From an uncultured archaeon (GTDB lineage Archaea; Iainarchaeota; Iainarchaeia; Iainarchaeales; GCA-2688035): a DNA stretch of 64,000 bases. Below are positions 17,777 to 64,000 of this stretch, piece after piece; positions within the stretch are counted from its first letter, which is position 1, and every line of letters starts with the position of its first letter. A program made the position numbers and the translations under genes. Location: assembly GCA_964354805.1 (NCBI GenBank), contig CAYHBD010000016.1, forward strand, positions 1-64,000, read 5' to 3'. The notes under the pieces are model-generated. The model did not search any database. It was not told where the DNA came from and was given only the letters and a program-made list of their open reading frames with translations.

Positions 17777-17823
17777 AAGCCTTTTTCACTCCGTGAAAAA
17801 TCCTTGGGAAAATTTGCTTCGCA
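17777..17823 (+). repeat. Hairpin element copy A
   Basis: AAGCCTTTTTCAC-TCC-GTGAAAAATCCTT followed by GGGAAAATTTGCTTCGCA. Confidence 0.8.
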
Positions 17824-22996: not shown

Positions 22997-23038
22997 AAGC
23001 CTTTTGCACTACTGTGCAAAAGCCTTGGGAAAAAACAG
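22997..23038 (+). repeat. Hairpin element copy B
   Basis: AAGCCTTTTGCAC-TACT-GTGCAAAAGCCTT followed by GGGAAAAAACAG. Confidence 0.9.
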
Positions 23039-27399: not shown

Positions 27400-27465
27400 A
27401 AGCCTTTCTTTTTTAAAAAAAGAAAGCCTTGTGAAAGAAAAAAATGCAATTGCAAAGCAATTGCA
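27400..27465 (+). repeat. Hairpin element copy E
   Basis: AAGCCTTTCTTTTTTAAAAAAAGAAAGCCTT followed by GTGAAAGAAAA...TGCAATTGC-AAA-GCAATTGCA. Confidence 0.85.
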
Positions 27466-39649: not shown

Positions 39650-40003
39650 TCAGTAAGTTATCTCTTTCAACCGCAGGCTTTTTGTTATTCCGTCGTTTCC
39701 CCACAAGTAGGTGAAGTTTGTTTCGTCTATTTTTCCAACCCAGATTTGCCTGTTTCTCGGGTGCTCGTGCCCTTTCAGTGTGAACAGCCTGTGGAATTCA
39801 ACCAGCGCCTTGTCGCTGTCGCATTTAACCAGCTTGAACACAAAGCAGTTCGGCGTCTGCATCTGGTCAAAGCTTTCGCCTTCCTCCACAGCCACTTCGT
39901 TGCTTGCAACAGTTGCATTGAACGGCGGCTGCCATTTGTGAATCATGCTTTTCAAAAAAAATACTGCTTTCGGCAAAAATAACACATTCCTTATTTTTTT
40001 CAC
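39650..40003 (-). CDS. Hypothetical protein
   Basis: ORF with globular composition; start uncertain. Confidence 0.6.
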   Translation of the reverse strand: MKKIRNVLFLPKAVFFLKSMIHKWQPPFNATVASNEVAVEEGESFDQMQTPNCFVFKLVKCDSDKALVEFHRLFTLKGHEHPRNRQIWVGKIDETNFTYLWGNDGITKSLRLKEITY

Positions 40004-40761: not shown

Positions 40762-40773
40762 CCATCCAGCGGA

Positions 40774-40817
40774 AAGCCTTTTTTGCTGTTGCAAAAAAGC
40801 CTTGGGAAAAAAGCAGC
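40774..40817 (+). repeat. Hairpin element copy F
   Basis: AAGCCTTTTTTGC-TGTT-GCAAAAAAGCCTT followed by GGGAAAAAAGCAGC; flanked by CAGCGGAA repeats. Confidence 0.9.
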
Positions 40818-47463: not shown

Positions 47464-49074
47464 ATGGCTCCCACCCCCGACAGTTTTTGGTTAACGGATG
47501 TTAAATATTTGGAGGACAAAAGGGCGGTTCTGGCTGATTTCTCCAGGCTCAACATTAGGAGAAATTTATGCCTGCCCTTCGTTCCCTCTTTTTTTGCAAG
47601 CAAAAAACGCGTTAAAAAAGAGCAGCTGCTTTCCGCTCTATCTGCATTGGGAAAACAGCCCTTTGAATTAAACGAAGAAAAAAGCGCATTCAAAATAACC
47701 GCTGCCACTTTCGCTGATTTGAACAAAGCTGCAAACGCGCTTTTTCAGGAAATGAATTTTTCGCCGATTGTCCTGCAGCCGGAGCGGCAGTTTCTGCTGC
47801 AGCAAAACTGGAGCTATTTTGACTGCTTTCACTTTACTTCAGAAAAAGAACCGCAGAAAATTGAATGCAATGAATTGCCTGGCATAAATCTGCCTTTCTT
47901 CTCAGAGCCATTGAATGAAACAGTTCAGCAGCTTCTGGGCGTGGATGCGAACAGCGCAATGCGCATCCTTGAATCAATTGCATTAAGCAATGCGCTGCGT
48001 TTGCCTTTAACCAATTTATCGCCTCGCAATGACACGCATGCCGAGGCCCTGTTTGAGAATATTTTCTGGTTTAATGGAGAAAGCAGGCACTTGCCGTGCA
48101 AAAGGCTAGGCTCACCACCCGCATGGCATGTGCCTTCTTTTTCTAATGCAACGTTTTTCGATTTCAGCCAGTTGTGGCCGACGATTCTGACAAAGCCGTT
48201 CTATAACGTTTCCCTTGAAACAATTGACTGCCACTGCTGCAAGCCTTTTGCTGTTGCAAAAGCCTCCTTGCAAAACCAAGGGTTTTGCGAGGTCCCGCAA
48301 AAGCAAAGCTTTTGCAGGATGGGAAAAGCAGCCTTCGGCGAGCCAATTGGAATTGATGCCAGAAACATTCTGCCGAGCAGCACTGTTTCGGCTGAATTCC
48401 TGCAGGACGGCTTTTATTTTGACAGTTCGTTCCCTGAATTCGCCGCAAGGTTTCACGCAGAAAATGAGGGCAGGGAGAGGAGGGAGCGGAGAATGAGGGA
48501 ATTCTGCCTGCCGTTTCCCCCAATCGGGCCCTTTGACAGGGGCAGCATTGCTGCAATTCCGTTGAATGATGCAATTGCTTTAACCCAGAGAAACAAGGCA
48601 AGAATAATTTCGTTGAATGAAACGCACTGGTTTTGCCTAAAGCAGGAATCTGCTGTGGCAAAGCAAATCATCTTGTTGCAGGCAAAAATAGCATTGATTG
48701 AAAAGGAAGCCAATGCAACCGAGAGCGTTTTTTTGAAAGAGCACGGATTGAATGCAATCCAGCTGTTGAATAACGACTGCAATTTTCTTTTCAATAAAGC
48801 AAAGGCAAAGGTTTGCGCACAGCTTCTCTCCTCAATTGCACAGCATTTGCAGGATAGAAACAGCGCTTTCTTTGATGAAAACCTGGGCAATGCCGTTGCA
48901 GGCATTGCTGCCCTTATTTTAAGCGAATTCCAGCTATTCTCGCAGCAGCAGGGCAGCAGGGTTGTTCTGCTGCAGCAGGGAAACGCTCTTGTAAAAAGCG
49001 AAAAGCCACTGAGCTTAATTGAGCAGTTCAGCATGGTGCAGAAAATCCCTGCTTTGATCAGGCTGCGGAATTGA
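47464..49074 (+). CDS. Degenerate (likely inactive) family B DNA polymerase, PolB2-like
   Basis: FDFSQLWPTIL...NVSLETIDCHCC resembles motif A of PolB2; no DTDS motif. Confidence 0.7.
   Translation: MAPTPDSFWLTDVKYLEDKRAVLADFSRLNIRRNLCLPFVPSFFASKKRVKKEQLLSALSALGKQPFELNEEKSAFKITAATFADLNKAANALFQEMNFSPIVLQPERQFLLQQNWSYFDCFHFTSEKEPQKIECNELPGINLPFFSEPLNETVQQLLGVDANSAMRILESIALSNALRLPLTNLSPRNDTHAEALFENIFWFNGESRHLPCKRLGSPPAWHVPSFSNATFFDFSQLWPTILTKPFYNVSLETIDCHCCKPFAVAKASLQNQGFCEVPQKQSFCRMGKAAFGEPIGIDARNILPSSTVSAEFLQDGFYFDSSFPEFAARFHAENEGRERRERRMREFCLPFPPIGPFDRGSIAAIPLNDAIALTQRNKARIISLNETHWFCLKQESAVAKQIILLQAKIALIEKEANATESVFLKEHGLNAIQLLNNDCNFLFNKAKAKVCAQLLSSIAQHLQDRNSAFFDENLGNAVAGIAALILSEFQLFSQQQGSRVVLLQQGNALVKSEKPLSLIEQFSMVQKIPALIRLRN
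48241..48340 (+). repeat. Composite hairpin element copy G, in frame in the PolB2-like gene
   Basis: AAGCCTTTTGC-TGTT-GCAAAAGCCT, two 27-nt hairpins, then TGGGAAAAGCAGC. Confidence 0.9.
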
Positions 49075-62042: not shown

Positions 62043-62825
62043 TTGTTTAAAAAATTGCTGGCGTTGGCTATTCTGCTGCTGTTTTGCAATAGTGTTTTTG
62101 GTACTGTTTTTCTGGTTGAGCCAGTTGATGCAAAAGTGCAGAGCGGCGAAGAGATTGCTTTGGGCAAGGCAGCCAAGGGTGAAACTGTTCGCATTGTTCT
62201 AAAAAAGAAAAGCGAGCTTTCAGTTGAGTGGAACAGCATTGCTGTTGGGCAATTGCCTCAGGGCTGGAAAAGCAGCAGTGTTGAAACAGACAAGACCCTG
62301 ATTGCCCTTATTTCAATTCCTGCAAATGCTGTTGTGAGCACGCAGAGGATTCAGTTTGTTTTAAGCAACAAGAGCCAGCCTTTGTTTGCTGAAAGCTTTT
62401 TCGGCAACCTGAGTGTTCGGGATAACCTGCTCACTGTTACAATTGACAACCTCAACCAGCAGACTATCGTTGGAGAAAAGGTTCGCTTCAGGCTGATTGC
62501 AAACAATGATTCAATCGCTGAGCACACTGTTTCCATTGCAAGCGATTTGCCTTCTTATTGGCTGCAGCCTTTTTCAGTGAAATTGAATCCGTCTGCTGCG
62601 ACAGAAATTGATTTGAATGTCAACGCTGTTGCTTACGGTGAAAGAAGATTCAATCTGATTGTGAGCTCAACGCATAATGAAAAGAAATTTGTTTTCCCTG
62701 CTTCGCTCAGCGTAAACCCAACGCTGAAAGGAAAATACACCGCTGCCCTGTACGGCTTTCCCTTCTTTTCCCCTTCACTGATCAGCAATTACCTGGTAAA
62801 CGCCTTCCTTGCGCTGCTTTCGTGA
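62043..62825 (+). CDS. Hypothetical secreted beta-rich protein
   Basis: Signal peptide; hydrophobic C-terminus. Confidence 0.75.
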   Translation: MFKKLLALAILLLFCNSVFGTVFLVEPVDAKVQSGEEIALGKAAKGETVRIVLKKKSELSVEWNSIAVGQLPQGWKSSSVETDKTLIALISIPANAVVSTQRIQFVLSNKSQPLFAESFFGNLSVRDNLLTVTIDNLNQQTIVGEKVRFRLIANNDSIAEHTVSIASDLPSYWLQPFSVKLNPSAATEIDLNVNAVAYGERRFNLIVSSTHNEKKFVFPASLSVNPTLKGKYTAALYGFPFFSPSLISNYLVNAFLALLS

Positions 62826-62851
62826 AGCCTTTCTTTAGAAAAGAAAGCCTT
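62825..62851 (+). repeat. Hairpin element copy H
   Basis: AAGCCTTTCTTT-AGA-AAAGAAAGCCTT overlapping a stop codon. Confidence 0.85.
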
Positions 62852-62967
62852 GGCACAATGTCAAGCAATGAAATAAAAAAGAATATTTTGATGCTTGACA
62901 TTGTGGGGAAAGAAATAATAAATTGGTATAAAAACATTGCAGCATATTCAAATTGAAGTGGTTCCTG

Positions 62968-64000
62968 TTGGATACTTTGCGCGCATACTGCCTGGATTTG
63001 ATTCATTCAATTGAATCAGGGGAAATAAAAACAAGGCAGCAGCTTAATGAAAAAAAGATTGAATTGTGCAAAAAGCACAGCCTGCCCCAAATGCCAAAAA
63101 ACCCGGTAATTCTTTCCTTTGCAAAGCCTTTTTTCCTCACGGAAAAAAGCCTTGGGAAATTCGCTTCGCAAGAAAAAAGTGAAACTCTTTTGAGGCTGCT
63201 TTCAGTCAAGCCTACAAGGGGCCTGAGCGGGATTGCAATTGTTGCAGTAATGACAAAGCCGCACAAATGCCCTGGAAAATGCATTTACTGCCCAAGCTCG
63301 CTTCTCCCTGGTAAGCGCACGCCAAAAAGCTACACCGGAAGAGAGCCTGCAACAATGCGGGCAATAAGCGCAAACTTTGACCCAGACCAGCAAATCAAGG
63401 ACAGGCTGAGGCAGCTGCAGGAAGCAGGGCATCCTACAAACAAAATTGAATTAATTGTAATGGGCGGCACCTTCCTGAGCCAGCAGCTTTCTTTTCAAAA
63501 AAAATTCATGCTGAGTTGCCTGAATGCATTTAATGGGCAGAAAGCAAAAACAATTGCCGCTGCTGCAAAGGCTGCTGAAAGCGCTGCCAACAGAATCACG
63601 GGCATTACCTTTGAAACAAGGCCTGATTTTTGCGGAAAAAAAGAAATAAGCAACCTGCTTTCTTTTGGCGGCACAAGATGCGAGCTTGGAGTGCAAACAA
63701 TTTACGATAGCGTTTATAAAAAAATTAACAGAGGGCACACAATTGCGGATGTAATCAATGCAACCCAGCTGCTGAAAGACAGCGCTTTCAAAGTAACCTA
63801 CCATTACATGCCGGGCCTGCCTGGCGTGAGCTTCCGGGAAGACGAGCAGGCATTGCGAAAAATTTTTTCTTGCCCAGAATTCAAGCCCGATAGCCTGAAG
63901 ATTTACCCCTGCCTGGTGATTGAGGGCACTGAGCTGTTCAGGCAATGGCAGCGCGGTTCATATGACCCTTTTTCAACAGAGAAAGCGGTTAAGCTGCTTG
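62968..64000 (+). CDS. elp3: Elp3 radical SAM/tRNA acetyltransferase (truncated by the window end)
   Basis: Hand translation from TTG 62968: KPTRGLSGIAIVAVMTKPHKCPGKCIYCP, KSYTGREPA, MGGTF, ETRPD, ELGVQ, INRGH, LKIYP. Confidence 0.95.
   Translation, partial: MDTLRAYCLDLIHSIESGEIKTRQQLNEKKIELCKKHSLPQMPKNPVILSFAKPFFLTEKSLGKFASQEKSETLLRLLSVKPTRGLSGIAIVAVMTKPHKCPGKCIYCPSSLLPGKRTPKSYTGREPATMRAISANFDPDQQIKDRLRQLQEAGHPTNKIELIVMGGTFLSQQLSFQKKFMLSCLNAFNGQKAKTIAAAAKAAESAANRITGITFETRPDFCGKKEISNLLSFGGTRCELGVQTIYDSVYKKINRGHTIADVINATQLLKDSAFKVTYHYMPGLPGVSFREDEQALRKIFSCPEFKPDSLKIYPCLVIEGTELFRQWQRGSYDPFSTEKAVKLL
63124..63170 (+). repeat. Hairpin element copy I, in frame in elp3
   Basis: AAGCCTTTTTTCC-TCAC-GGAAAAAAGCCTT followed by GGGAAATTCGCTTCGCA. 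Confidence 0.9.

What the first reader, a model, noticed from the sequence alone, without database searches (positions are those of the whole stretch)
48241..48344. Nested triple hairpin adding about 33 codons in frame to the PolB2-like protein
Seen: the consensus AAAAGCCT|TGGGAAAA is split by two 27-nt hairpins (48266-48292 CCTTGCAAAACC-AAG-GGTTTTGCGAGG; 48293-48319 TCCCGCAAAAGC-AAA-GCTTTTGCAGGA), each also mispaired at stem position 4. AGCC recurs 99 nt apart (48242, 48341). Knowledge: Rickettsia palindromic elements create new protein segments by in-frame insertion. Inference: an archaeal analogue in which hairpins insert into each other.
Basis: partly seen in the sequence, partly recalled or inferred. 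Interest (0 to 1): 0.72.

Follow-up and report, generated by a model that had tools for sequence, protein, structure and literature searches.

The report
Nested hairpin repeat inside polymerase-like gene
A 99-base stack of small hairpin-forming repeats, copies of a repeat family that litters this tiny (DPANN, Iainarchaeum-like) archaeon's genome, has landed in frame in a degenerate DNA-polymerase-like gene and adds a 33-residue floppy loop. Close relatives still have the empty site or carry a further nested copy.

Summary
Window 48242-48339 holds three abutting hairpins, a purine tail and a mini-hairpin. AGCC recurs 99 nt apart.

- About 35 orthologs lack residues 261-293.
- Two relatives with about 92% identical DNA have the empty site (TGCAAA|CCAATT and TGCAAGCCAATT).
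- A third relative has the same insert plus a further 39-nt element in the outer hairpin's loop, still in frame.
- A fourth appears, from protein sequence only, to carry the outer element without the two inner hairpins.

The outer hairpin is one copy of a family-wide repeat, AAGCC-T(n)GC-loop-GCA(n)-GCCTTGGGAAAA. The two 27-nt hairpins form a 54-nt twin module. It occurs five times in this genome, always exactly at GCCT|TGGG, and also in other Iainarchaeum genomes.

The insert has no stop codon in any of six frames. AlphaFold models it as the only disordered segment of a confident family-B polymerase fold. The same repeats sit in frame in Fic and Elp3, in a relative's NurA, and at two other loops of this polymerase-like protein in relatives.

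The mobilising enzyme is unknown, and IS200-type Y1 genes do not track copy number.

This scan had already described the repeat family on other DNA of this genome. The new points are the allelic series at one coding site and the module's fixed landing point.

The parts
47464..49074 (+). Host gene: 536-aa degenerate family-B DNA polymerase-like protein (P0001), conserved across Iainarchaeia/Diapherotrites.
   Evidence: ORF. Orthologs were found in 37 of 41 related genomes. The top Foldseek hits are archaeal PolB (5mdn_A, E 5.6e-10). The motif A remnant is DFSQLWPTIL, and motif C YGDTDS aligns to LLQQGNA. Differences from L017 by codon position are 32/21/73, which indicates purifying selection.
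48244..48342 (+). The 99-nt in-frame insertion (33 codons, residues 261-293). Its boundaries can slide by up to 4 nt because of the AGCC repeat.
   Evidence: It is absent from L016 and L046 at the same site and from all more distant orthologs. It is stop-free in all six frames. Residues 264-292 are the only segment with pLDDT below 50.
48242..48265 (+). Outer hairpin AGCCTTTTGC-TGTT-GCAAAAGCCT, the hairpin of the basic genome-wide repeat unit.
   Evidence: Inverted repeat I9. The same unit occurs in 90 strict copies in the genome.
48266..48292 (+). Inner hairpin H1, with a T.G wobble at stem position 4.
   Evidence: Exact-pattern copies occur in other Iainarchaeum MAGs, including GW2011_AR10.
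48293..48319 (+). Inner hairpin H2, with C.A at stem position 4. It is an H1-like hairpin in inverted orientation.
   Evidence: Ten H2 variants from different genomes show compensatory stem changes, and 9 of 10 keep C.A at position 4.
48320..48328 (+). Purine tail TGGGAAAAG of the basic unit. It is the mirror image of the A-run arm, and the junction GCCT|TGGG is the centre of that mirror.
   Evidence: Covariation of xAAAGCC-TT-GGGAAAx across the genome: 8 G-G, 57 A-A, 2 mixed.
48331..48339 (+). Trailing mini-hairpin GCC-TTC-GGC. A variable second hairpin follows most copies of the basic unit.
   Evidence: Sequence. Comparable trailing hairpins appear in the copies listed.
48242..48245 (+). Left AGCC of the flanking direct repeat. 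It is also the conserved head of the basic unit.
   Evidence: AGCC occurs once in the empty site of L046 (TGCAAGCCAATTGG) and twice in the filled site.
48341..48344 (+). Right AGCC of the flanking direct repeat.
40773..40810 (+). Intergenic basic unit with an intact (empty) GCCT|TGGG junction. Its ortholog in L017 carries a 94-nt twin-hairpin module at that junction.
   Evidence: L017 against C16 indel list.
63125..63159 (+). Another copy of the basic unit, read in frame inside the Elp3-like radical-SAM gene (62932 to beyond the window end).
   Evidence: Census. The copy lies inside the ELP3_N match. The G000 open frame is 568 aa against 524-540 aa for most full-length matches in relatives.

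Best explanation
The feature is a composite copy of a miniature hairpin repeat family found in one family of Iainarchaeia (DPANN). It was inserted into a loop-coding part of a catalytically degenerate family-B polymerase-like gene and is translated as 33 extra residues.

Inferred order of events:
1. A basic unit landed at CAAGCC|AATTGG. The unit consists of an AAGCC head, a T-run/A-run hairpin, the GCCTTGGGAAAA tail and a mini-hairpin. AGCC now lies on both sides.
2. A separate 54-nt module of two inverted imperfect hairpins (H1 and H2) entered exactly between the two T's of GCCT|TGGG. That point is the centre of the unit's mirror repeat.
3. In one sister lineage a third unit entered the loop of the outer hairpin.

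The copy survives in the gene for three reasons. Its length is a multiple of 3. The repeat has no stop codon in any frame. The site is a tolerant loop just after the conserved CxCC motif.

Shown here: the insertion as a derived state, the empty and fuller alleles, the module's recurrence at the fixed junction, the stop-free property and the disordered model.

Inferred: the order of steps 1 and 2 at this particular site, and translation of the insert.

Unknown: the enzyme or process that moves the units. The landing points are a hairpin loop, the mirror centre and short flanking repeats of variable length. My best guess from these is a process that acts on folded single-stranded DNA. This guess is weakly supported.
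For: **Derived insertion**
- About 35 related genomes match residues 4-264 and 294-536 contiguously.
- Alignment A1 shows a gap of exactly 33 columns in 11 orthologs of 31-58% identity.
- Empty sites at DNA level are L016 TGCAAA|CCAATTGG and L046 TGCAAGCCAATTGG.

**Repeat identity**
- The AAAAGCCTTGGGAAAA motif occurs 125 times at up to 2 mismatches, and there are 90 strict units in 1.38 Mb.
- The 14-mer AAAGCCTTGGGAAA is found in 18 of 22 other genomes of the same family, at 0-143 copies each. It is found in only 3 of 18 genomes from other families of the order. The reversed control gives 0-1 hits.

**Nesting**
- L017 has a further 39 nt in the outer loop at this site.
- L017 has a 94-nt module at GCCT|TGGG of the unit that is empty at window 40795. 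The same 94-nt module is seen in G000 contig C28.
- Five 54-nt modules in G000 all lie at GCCT|TGGG. Four have identical stems, and the fifth (on C30) has the two stem cores swapped. Their host units differ in T-run length, loop and trailing hairpin.
- L034, from another MAG, has the same architecture.
- P0003 reads ...KKALGKAAFGE, which is what an uninterrupted AAAAAAGCCTTGGGAAAAGCAGCCTTCGGCGAG would encode (protein-level inference only).

**Structural constraint**
- The H2 stem varies with compensatory changes across 10 genomes, yet keeps the position-4 C.A mispair in 9.
- All 18 archaeal H1 hits have a complementary S-S pair, although the search pattern allowed four combinations.
- Mirror covariation is 65 concordant against 2 discordant.

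**Tolerance in coding DNA**
- All six frames of the insert are open. This holds for 25 of 20000 random genomic 99-mers and 1 of 20000 shuffles.
- pLDDT is below 50 only at residues 264-292, in a model with mean pLDDT 86.8.
- The host gene shows mostly third-position differences from L017.

**Generality**
- A 108-nt composite lies in the Fic gene. It is absent from the G004 ortholog, which is about 87-89% identical in the flanking protein segments.
- A 48-nt unit lies in nurA of L017 and is absent in the window.
- Two tandem units lie in another loop of this protein in L053.
- Coding indels are 99, 39, 48 and 108 nt, plus a 15-residue insert in P0003 known from protein only. All are whole numbers of codons. 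The two intergenic indels are 58 and 94 nt.
Against: - No transcript or peptide data exist, so translation of the 33 codons is inferred.
- The tree of the four close orthologs is unresolved (support 81/71). The empty alleles could be ancestral, or could result from precise loss.
- The base-only intermediate (P0003) is known from protein sequence only, because its DNA could not be fetched.
- Polymorphisms cannot by themselves tell gain from loss of a module.
- Flanking repeats are short and variable (AGCC, AAAGCC, GCAGGA/GCAGCA, none for the module). They could be microhomology rather than true target duplications.
- No mobilising gene is linked to the repeats. The two Y1 transposase genes are IS200-type and are not flanked by the repeats. 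Across 41 genomes they do not track repeat number. G001 has 30 copies and no Y1 match. G023 has 5 Y1 matches and no copies.
Confidence: 0.85

Rival explanations
1. The composite (outer unit plus twin-hairpin module) moved into the gene as one ready-made 99-nt piece. On this reading nothing was nested at this site, and 'hairpins inserting into each other' happened elsewhere or not at all.
For: Five near-identical composites exist in the genome. Complex composites recur as units, for example the 94-nt module with a nested unit in both L017 and G000 C28. The stepwise order at this site rests on a protein-level reading of P0003.
Against: Host units of the five composites differ in T-run length (4, 6 or 7), stem, loop and trailing hairpin, while four of the five modules have identical stems. 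At window 40795 the same orthologous unit is empty in one lineage and filled in the other. P0003's peptide KKALGK matches an uninterrupted junction.
Confidence: 0.2
2. The inserted RNA is cut out of the transcript, for example by the archaeal splicing endonuclease. This would fit earlier scan notes that the same repeat forms tRNA introns. On this reading the protein is not lengthened.
For: Earlier notes of this scan report the repeat at tRNA introns (e1-2787989, e1-5623651; not checked here). The insert folds strongly.
Against: Every coding-region copy examined is a whole number of codons and stop-free, while the two intergenic indels are not multiples of 3. An excised intron would not need either property. 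The minimum-energy fold shows no exon-exon helix or bulge-helix-bulge at the insert's borders (read by eye, not an exhaustive search).
Confidence: 0.07
3. The segment is an ancestral part of the protein that was lost in other lineages, and its palindromes are coincidental or selected for a protein function.
For: Three of five close lineages carry it, and the tree is unresolved.
Against: All orthologs of 29-58% identity lack it. The DNA is a copy of a repeat present about 100 times in the genome, mostly outside genes. The same peptide KPFAVAKA...GK appears in an unrelated Fic protein, encoded by the same repeat.
Confidence: 0.02
4. The repeats are moved in trans by the genome's Y1 (HUH, IS200/RAYT-like) single-strand transposases, as REP/REPIN elements are moved by RAYTs.
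For: The genome has two intact Y1 genes. The twin module is two imperfect hairpins in inverted orientation with a conserved mispair, which resembles a REPIN (REPIN concept from PMC3116915). Landing points lie in hairpin loops, which fits a single-strand mechanism.
Against: Both genes score as IS200 type (108 and 103 bits against a cut-off of 55). They score below the REP-associated model's cut-off (39 and 34 bits against 80). No repeat copy lies near either gene, and the flanks of the C35 gene that were read carry unrelated hairpins. Y1 presence does not follow repeat number across 41 genomes. Incomplete genomes weaken this last point.
Confidence: 0.2

Closest known systems
Rickettsia palindromic elements (RPEs)
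   Same: Both are a dispersed palindromic repeat family in a small genome whose copies sit in frame inside unrelated protein genes and add a peptide segment without destroying the protein (RPE facts from the review PMC10969869, read). Here the same holds for the PolB-like, Fic, Elp3 and NurA genes.
   Different: The host here is an archaeon. The units are far shorter (about 35-60 nt against about 150 bp) and modular. They nest inside one another at fixed points (hairpin loop, mirror centre). No sequence relationship is known.
REP / BIME / REPIN elements with RAYT transposases
   Same: Both are short imperfect palindromes with a conserved mispair that gives them polarity. They are clustered in mosaics. 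The twin module is two inverted hairpins, like a REPIN doublet (PMC3116915).
   Different: No RAYT-type gene flanked by the repeats was found. The Y1 genes present are IS200-type and do not co-vary with repeat number. REPs are extragenic, whereas these repeats also colonise coding DNA.
MITEs (non-autonomous derivatives of DDE insertion sequences)
   Same: Both are small, multicopy and lack a gene. Their presence or absence varies between close relatives.
   Different: No terminal inverted repeats bound the unit: it has an AAGCC head and a variable hairpin at the other end. Flanking repeats are not of fixed length (0, 4 or 6 nt here; longer in earlier scan notes). No parent IS was identified.
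Intrastrand-triplex (mirror) repeats such as BoxC/PIT of proteobacteria
   Same: The basic unit has a hairpin followed by a purine tract that mirrors the A-run arm and co-varies with it. The comparison comes from earlier scan note e1-5623651, which cites PMC4666352; that paper was not read here.
   Different: Triplex formation is untested. Here the mirror centre also serves as the landing point of a second element.

Membership tests
Rickettsia palindromic elements (RPE) | Dispersed palindromic repeat with copies inserted in frame in protein genes whose orthologs lack them | tested here: met
Rickettsia palindromic elements (RPE) | Sequence membership in the RPE-1 to RPE-10 families of Rickettsia (about 100-150 bp units) | not tested
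   No RPE sequences were on hand. Unit size (35-60 nt) and host (archaeon) differ. The likeness is treated as functional only.
REP/REPIN-RAYT system | A RAYT-type Y1 transposase gene associated with, and usually flanked by, the repeats | tested here: not met
   The two Y1 genes score as IS200 (108 and 103 bits) and below the REP-associated cut-off (39 and 34 bits against 80). No repeat copy lies near them. There is no co-variation across 41 genomes.
REP/REPIN-RAYT system | Imperfect palindromes with conserved asymmetry, occurring as inverted doublets | tested here: met
   H1 and H2 lie in inverted orientation. The position-4 mispair is kept through compensatory stem changes.
MITE | Terminal inverted repeats bounding the element, and a target duplication of fixed length | tested here: not met
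   The ends are an AAGCC head and a variable trailing hairpin. Flanking repeats are 4 nt (AGCC), 6 nt (AAAGCC; GCAGGA/GCAGCA) or none for the module.
Family-B DNA polymerase (host gene) | PolB fold | tested here: met
   The AlphaFold model has mean pLDDT 86.8. The top Foldseek hits are all archaeal PolB or E. coli Pol II, best E 5.6e-10 with TM about 0.5.
Family-B DNA polymerase (host gene) | Catalytic motifs A (DxxSLYPS) and C (YxDTDS) | tested here: not met
   The motif A remnant is DFSQLWP. Motif C aligns to LLQQGNA, which has no acidic pair. Pfam DNA_pol_B gave no match. The protein is likely inactive. Membership of the PolB2 clade was not tested by phylogeny.
Archaeal bulge-helix-bulge intron | Two 3-nt bulges separated by a 4-bp helix at the two borders | tested here: inconclusive
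   None is evident in the minimum-energy fold. No dedicated search was run. The in-frame, stop-free pattern argues against excision.

The most novel reading that the evidence does not exclude
The 54-nt twin-hairpin module is a mobile unit in its own right, a parasite of a parasite. It homes to one nucleotide position, the mirror centre GCCT|TGGG of the basic hairpin repeat, while basic units home to each other's hairpin loops. On this reading insertion is directed by folded single-stranded DNA rather than by sequence. The family is also shaped to be stop-free in all six frames, so it acts as a recurrent source of new protein loops in genome-reduced DPANN archaea. The mechanism would match no described transposition pathway.
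Probability: 0.35. Interest if true: 0.8.

Novelty: new variant of a known kind. Interest (0 to 1): 0.62.

Why it matters
In-frame colonisation of genes by palindromic repeats is a textbook curiosity known mainly from Rickettsia. This case provides an archaeal counterpart, in a lineage with tiny genomes where every insertion should be costly.

Four allelic states are seen or inferred at one coding site: empty, base unit only (protein evidence), base plus twin module, and base plus twin module plus a loop-nested unit. That series shows how a protein loop is built stepwise from selfish DNA.

The fixed landing points (a hairpin loop and a mirror centre) give concrete substrates for finding the unknown mobilising activity.

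My searches of the held paper library found no description of this repeat family. Earlier follow-ups in this scan have already described it on other parts of this genome.

Tried and rejected
- **Extra conservation of the insert.** I asked whether the insert is more conserved than the gene between the window and L017, which would point to DNA-level constraint or homogenisation. There were 4 differences in 99 nt against 8.3% in the flanks (p = 0.076). This is not significant and the claim was dropped.
- **Polarity of the empty allele.** A tree of the four close orthologs was built to tell whether the empty state is ancestral. It came out unresolved.
- **Y1 transposase link.** The genes are IS200-type, no repeat copy lies near them, and there is no co-variation with repeat number.
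- **Orientation bias.** I compared repeat orientation with a crude gene set made of long ORFs. There was no bias: 13 sense and 12 antisense inside ORFs, and mixed neighbours outside.
- **Known RNA families.** Rfam found nothing in the window other than four tRNAs. Rfam and ARAGORN found nothing at the conserved twin-module sites L048, L033 and L041.
- **Sequence-based family assignment of the host protein.** Pfam and NCBIfam gave only sub-threshold hits, so the fold had to be used instead.
- **DNA for P0003.** It could not be fetched because the sample file was too large.
- **Other composite copies.** The other four composites in the genome lie at ORF edges or in short open frames. None is clearly deep inside a gene.
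Full report
**1. Observation**

The region 48241-48344 reads caAGCCTTTTGC-TGTT-GCAAAAGCCT | CCTTGCAAAACC-AAG-GGTTTTGCGAGG | TCCCGCAAAAGC-AAA-GCTTTTGCAGGA | TGGGAAAAGCA-GCC-TTC-GGC-GAGCC.

- The repeat finder reports both 27-nt hairpins at 92% complementarity, plus the outer hairpin 48242-48265.
- As single-stranded DNA, 48230-48355 folds into exactly these three hairpins. The energy is -31.8 kcal/mol, z = -3.4, and none of 200 shuffles folded as well.
- The inner-hairpin pattern occurs twice in the window against 0.08 expected.
- The split motif AAAAGCCTTGGGAAAA occurs intact at 23018 and 40795 and, with one mismatch, at 17797, 25009 and 63145.
- AGCC lies at 48242 and 48341.

**2. Host gene**

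ORF 47464-49074 encodes 536 residues. Sequence models give only sub-threshold hits.

- A profile of 15 orthologs finds one PDB chain, the Pyrobaculum family-B polymerase 5mdn. The alignment pairs DFS.LWP...YNLG.DT with motif A. It pairs LLQ.G.ALVKSE with the YGDTDSLFVK of motif C, so the catalytic aspartates are gone.
- An AlphaFold model built on 39 orthologs has mean pLDDT 86.8.
- All top Foldseek matches are archaeal PolB or E. coli Pol II, best E 5.6e-10.
- The gene is present in 37 of 41 related genomes.
- Homolog names and contig titles place the organism among Candidatus Diapherotrites / Iainarchaeum, a DPANN lineage.

**3. The insertion is derived**

In about 35 related genomes the protein matches as two pieces, residues about 4-264 and 294-536. 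The two pieces abut or overlap in the target DNA.

In alignment A1 the orthologs of 31-58% identity run CxCC(K/R/T/I/M/A)-P with nothing in between.

The four orthologs of 89-92% protein identity, and one further close relative, give an allelic series.
- P0004 (NCBI GCA_030692205.1) has CHCCK-PIGIDA. Its DNA, L016, reads TGCAAA|CCAATTGG.
- A JGI contig, L046, reads TGCAAGCCAATTGG, with AGCC once.
- The window has the 99 nt.
- P0002 (JGI 3300035659, L017) has the same 99 nt plus 39 nt replacing the TGTT loop of the outer hairpin. Those 39 nt are themselves a basic unit (AAGCCTTTTGGAAAAAGGCTTGCGAAAA...). The insert there is 46 residues and still in frame.
- P0003 (ENA) has a 25-residue insert at the same site ending ...KKALGKAAFGE. 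That is the translation of an uninterrupted AAAAAAGCCTTGGGAAAAGCAGCCTTCGGCGAG, meaning the outer unit without the inner hairpins. This is a protein-level inference, because the DNA could not be fetched.

The tree of these close sequences is unresolved. The empty alleles may therefore be ancestral or may result from precise loss. The distant orthologs fix the ancestral state as empty.

Differences between the window and L017 fall 32/21/73 on codon positions 1/2/3, so the gene is under purifying selection in insert-bearing lineages.

**4. What was inserted**

The genome is 1.38 Mb in 49 contigs, and the window is C16:1-64000. It carries about 90 strict copies of a basic unit: AAGCC, a T-run, a few bases of stem, a variable loop, the complementary A-run, GCCTTGGGAAAA, and usually a second small hairpin of variable stem.

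The purine tail mirrors the A-run arm and co-varies with it. For xAAAGCC-TT-GGGAAAx the counts are 8 G-G, 57 A-A and 2 mixed. Copies are not independent, so this is descriptive. It agrees with an earlier scan note that reads the unit as a possible fold-back triplex.

The exact 14-mer AAAGCCTTGGGAAA occurs in 18 of 22 other genomes of the same family, at 0 to 143 copies. It is almost absent from other families of the order. A reversed control gives 0-1 hits.

**5. The two inner hairpins are a separate module with a fixed landing point**

The genome holds five 54-nt H1+H2 modules. All five lie exactly between the two T's of GCCT|TGGG.

- Four have identical stems and differ only in the two 3-nt loops. 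The fifth has the two stem cores swapped.
- The host units differ in T-run length (4, 6 or 7), stem bases, loop and trailing hairpin.
- At window 40795 the junction is intact. The orthologous unit in L017 carries a 94-nt module there: H1 plus a second hairpin that itself holds a nested basic unit. The same 94-nt module occurs in contig C28 of this genome.
- H1 occurs in other Iainarchaeum MAGs and three times in the complete GW2011_AR10 genome, each time followed directly by a second hairpin.
- In L034 the whole architecture is repeated: unit, then GCCT | H1 | H2' | TGGGAAAAG.

Ten H2 variants from different genomes differ at many stem positions in a compensatory way. The outer three pairs vary as TCC/GGA, TCT/AGA, CCA/TGG and CCT/AGG, and the inner stem cores GCAAAAGC, GTGAAGC, AAAAAGC, GGAAACC and ACAAAGC each pair with their own complement. 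Nine of the ten keep a C.A mispair at stem position 4.

H1 has T.G at the same position. H2 is therefore an H1-like hairpin in inverted orientation. This conserved polarity resembles REP doublets (REPINs).

**6. Compatibility with coding DNA**

The 99 nt, and the 54-nt module alone, have no stop codon in any of six frames.

| Sequence set | All six frames open |
|---|---|
| Random genomic 99-mers | 25 of 20000 |
| Shuffles of the insert | 1 of 20000 |
| Basic units | 39 of 90 |
| Random 36-mers | 7% |

The only part of the protein model with pLDDT below 50 is residues 264-292, which is the insert.

**7. Generality**

- The Fic-domain gene on C8 carries a 108-nt composite (36 residues, including KKPFAVAKALGK from the same unit in the same frame). 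It is absent from the G004 ortholog, which is about 87-89% identical in the flanking segments.
- nurA of L017 carries a 48-nt unit that the window lacks.
- P0003 has a second insert, SLLPEQKPGENMLRN, at another site. Its sequence matches a basic unit read in another frame (protein-level inference).
- L053, a 41%-identical ortholog from another lineage, has two tandem units in frame in yet another loop (SLFSAEKSLGK twice). This was verified at DNA level.
- Units also lie within the Elp3 open frame (one copy at 63125 in this window) and within open frames for Dus-, DHH- and LeuRS-like proteins.
- All coding indels seen are whole numbers of codons: 99, 39, 48 and 108 nt, plus 15 residues in P0003. 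The two intergenic indels are 58 and 94 nt.

**8. Mechanism**

Flanking repeats at polymorphic sites are short and variable.
- AGCC at this site.
- AAAGCC before window 40773.
- GCAGGA/GCAGCA in nurA.
- None for the module.

Earlier scan notes report much longer duplications for related elements in other genomes (not checked here).

The genome has two IS200-type Y1 transposase genes. No repeat copy lies near either gene, and the flanks read on C35 carry unrelated hairpins. Across 41 genomes Y1 presence does not follow repeat number.

The mover is therefore unknown. The landing points are the tip of a hairpin and the centre of a mirror repeat. They suggest recognition of folded single strands. 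This is inference.

**9. Comparison and novelty**

Functionally this is the Rickettsia-palindromic-element phenomenon (PMC10969869) in an archaeon. The units are much smaller and modular, and they nest at fixed points.

It fails the tested defining features of MITEs (terminal inverted repeats, fixed duplication) and of REP-RAYT systems (an associated RAYT gene).

My searches of the held paper library found no description of the family.

The scan itself has already described the family elsewhere in this genome. This report adds the allelic series at one coding site, the module's single-nucleotide landing point, its conserved polarity across genomes, and the six-frame stop-free property.

Noticed in passing
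G000 C8:48841-50217 (L021) vs G004 C1:5174-6412 (L045): The Fic-domain gene is about 87-89% identical between this genome and a genome of another genus, whose PolB-like ortholog is only 44% identical. In G004 it lies about 850 bp upstream of the PolB-like gene. This suggests recent transfer of the Fic gene between lineages.
   Followed up: partly
G000 C11:996-1051 (L048) and L041:7343-7398: A twin-hairpin module lies outside any basic unit, between ...TTATATGCAA and AAAGCAATT..., at what looks like the same site in this genome and in a LacPavin Iainarchaeum MAG. Rfam and ARAGORN find nothing there. It may be a conserved functional site rather than a recent insertion.
   Followed up: partly
G000 C8:~49900-49950; C35:~43640; C9:~34140; L017:3033-3070: There is a further dispersed module of the form GTGGCA(A)TA...TAT(A)TGCCAC. 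It is AT-rich in the middle and resembles a TATA box. It often lies next to basic units and is polymorphic between L017 and the window near 40001.
   Followed up: no
G000 C35:572-1015 (-) and C13:1268-1786 (+): Two intact IS200-type Y1 transposase genes lie near contig ends. The C35 gene has its own unrelated flanking hairpins, and no TnpB-like ORF is visible beside either gene.
   Followed up: partly
L017:4754-4801 vs window ~41508: The relative's nurA gene carries a 48-nt in-frame basic unit that the window's nurA lacks. GCAGGA lies on both sides in L017, and the window's empty site reads GCAGCA.
   Followed up: partly
L053:~930-1040 (gene 301-1866): A 41%-identical PolB-like ortholog from another lineage has two tandem basic units in frame in a different loop. 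They encode SLFSAEKSLGK twice.
   Followed up: yes
window 27400-27437 and 62820-62858: A subfamily of the basic unit has TTTCTTT/AAAGAAA stems and the matching tail GGGAAAG (or TGTGAAAG). It shows the stem-tail covariation within the window.
   Followed up: partly
window 62932-64000 (gene runs to C16:64635): The Elp3-like open frame holds two basic units, at 63125-63159 and at C16:64319-64350. The open frame is 568 aa against 524-540 aa for most full-length matches in relatives.
   Followed up: partly
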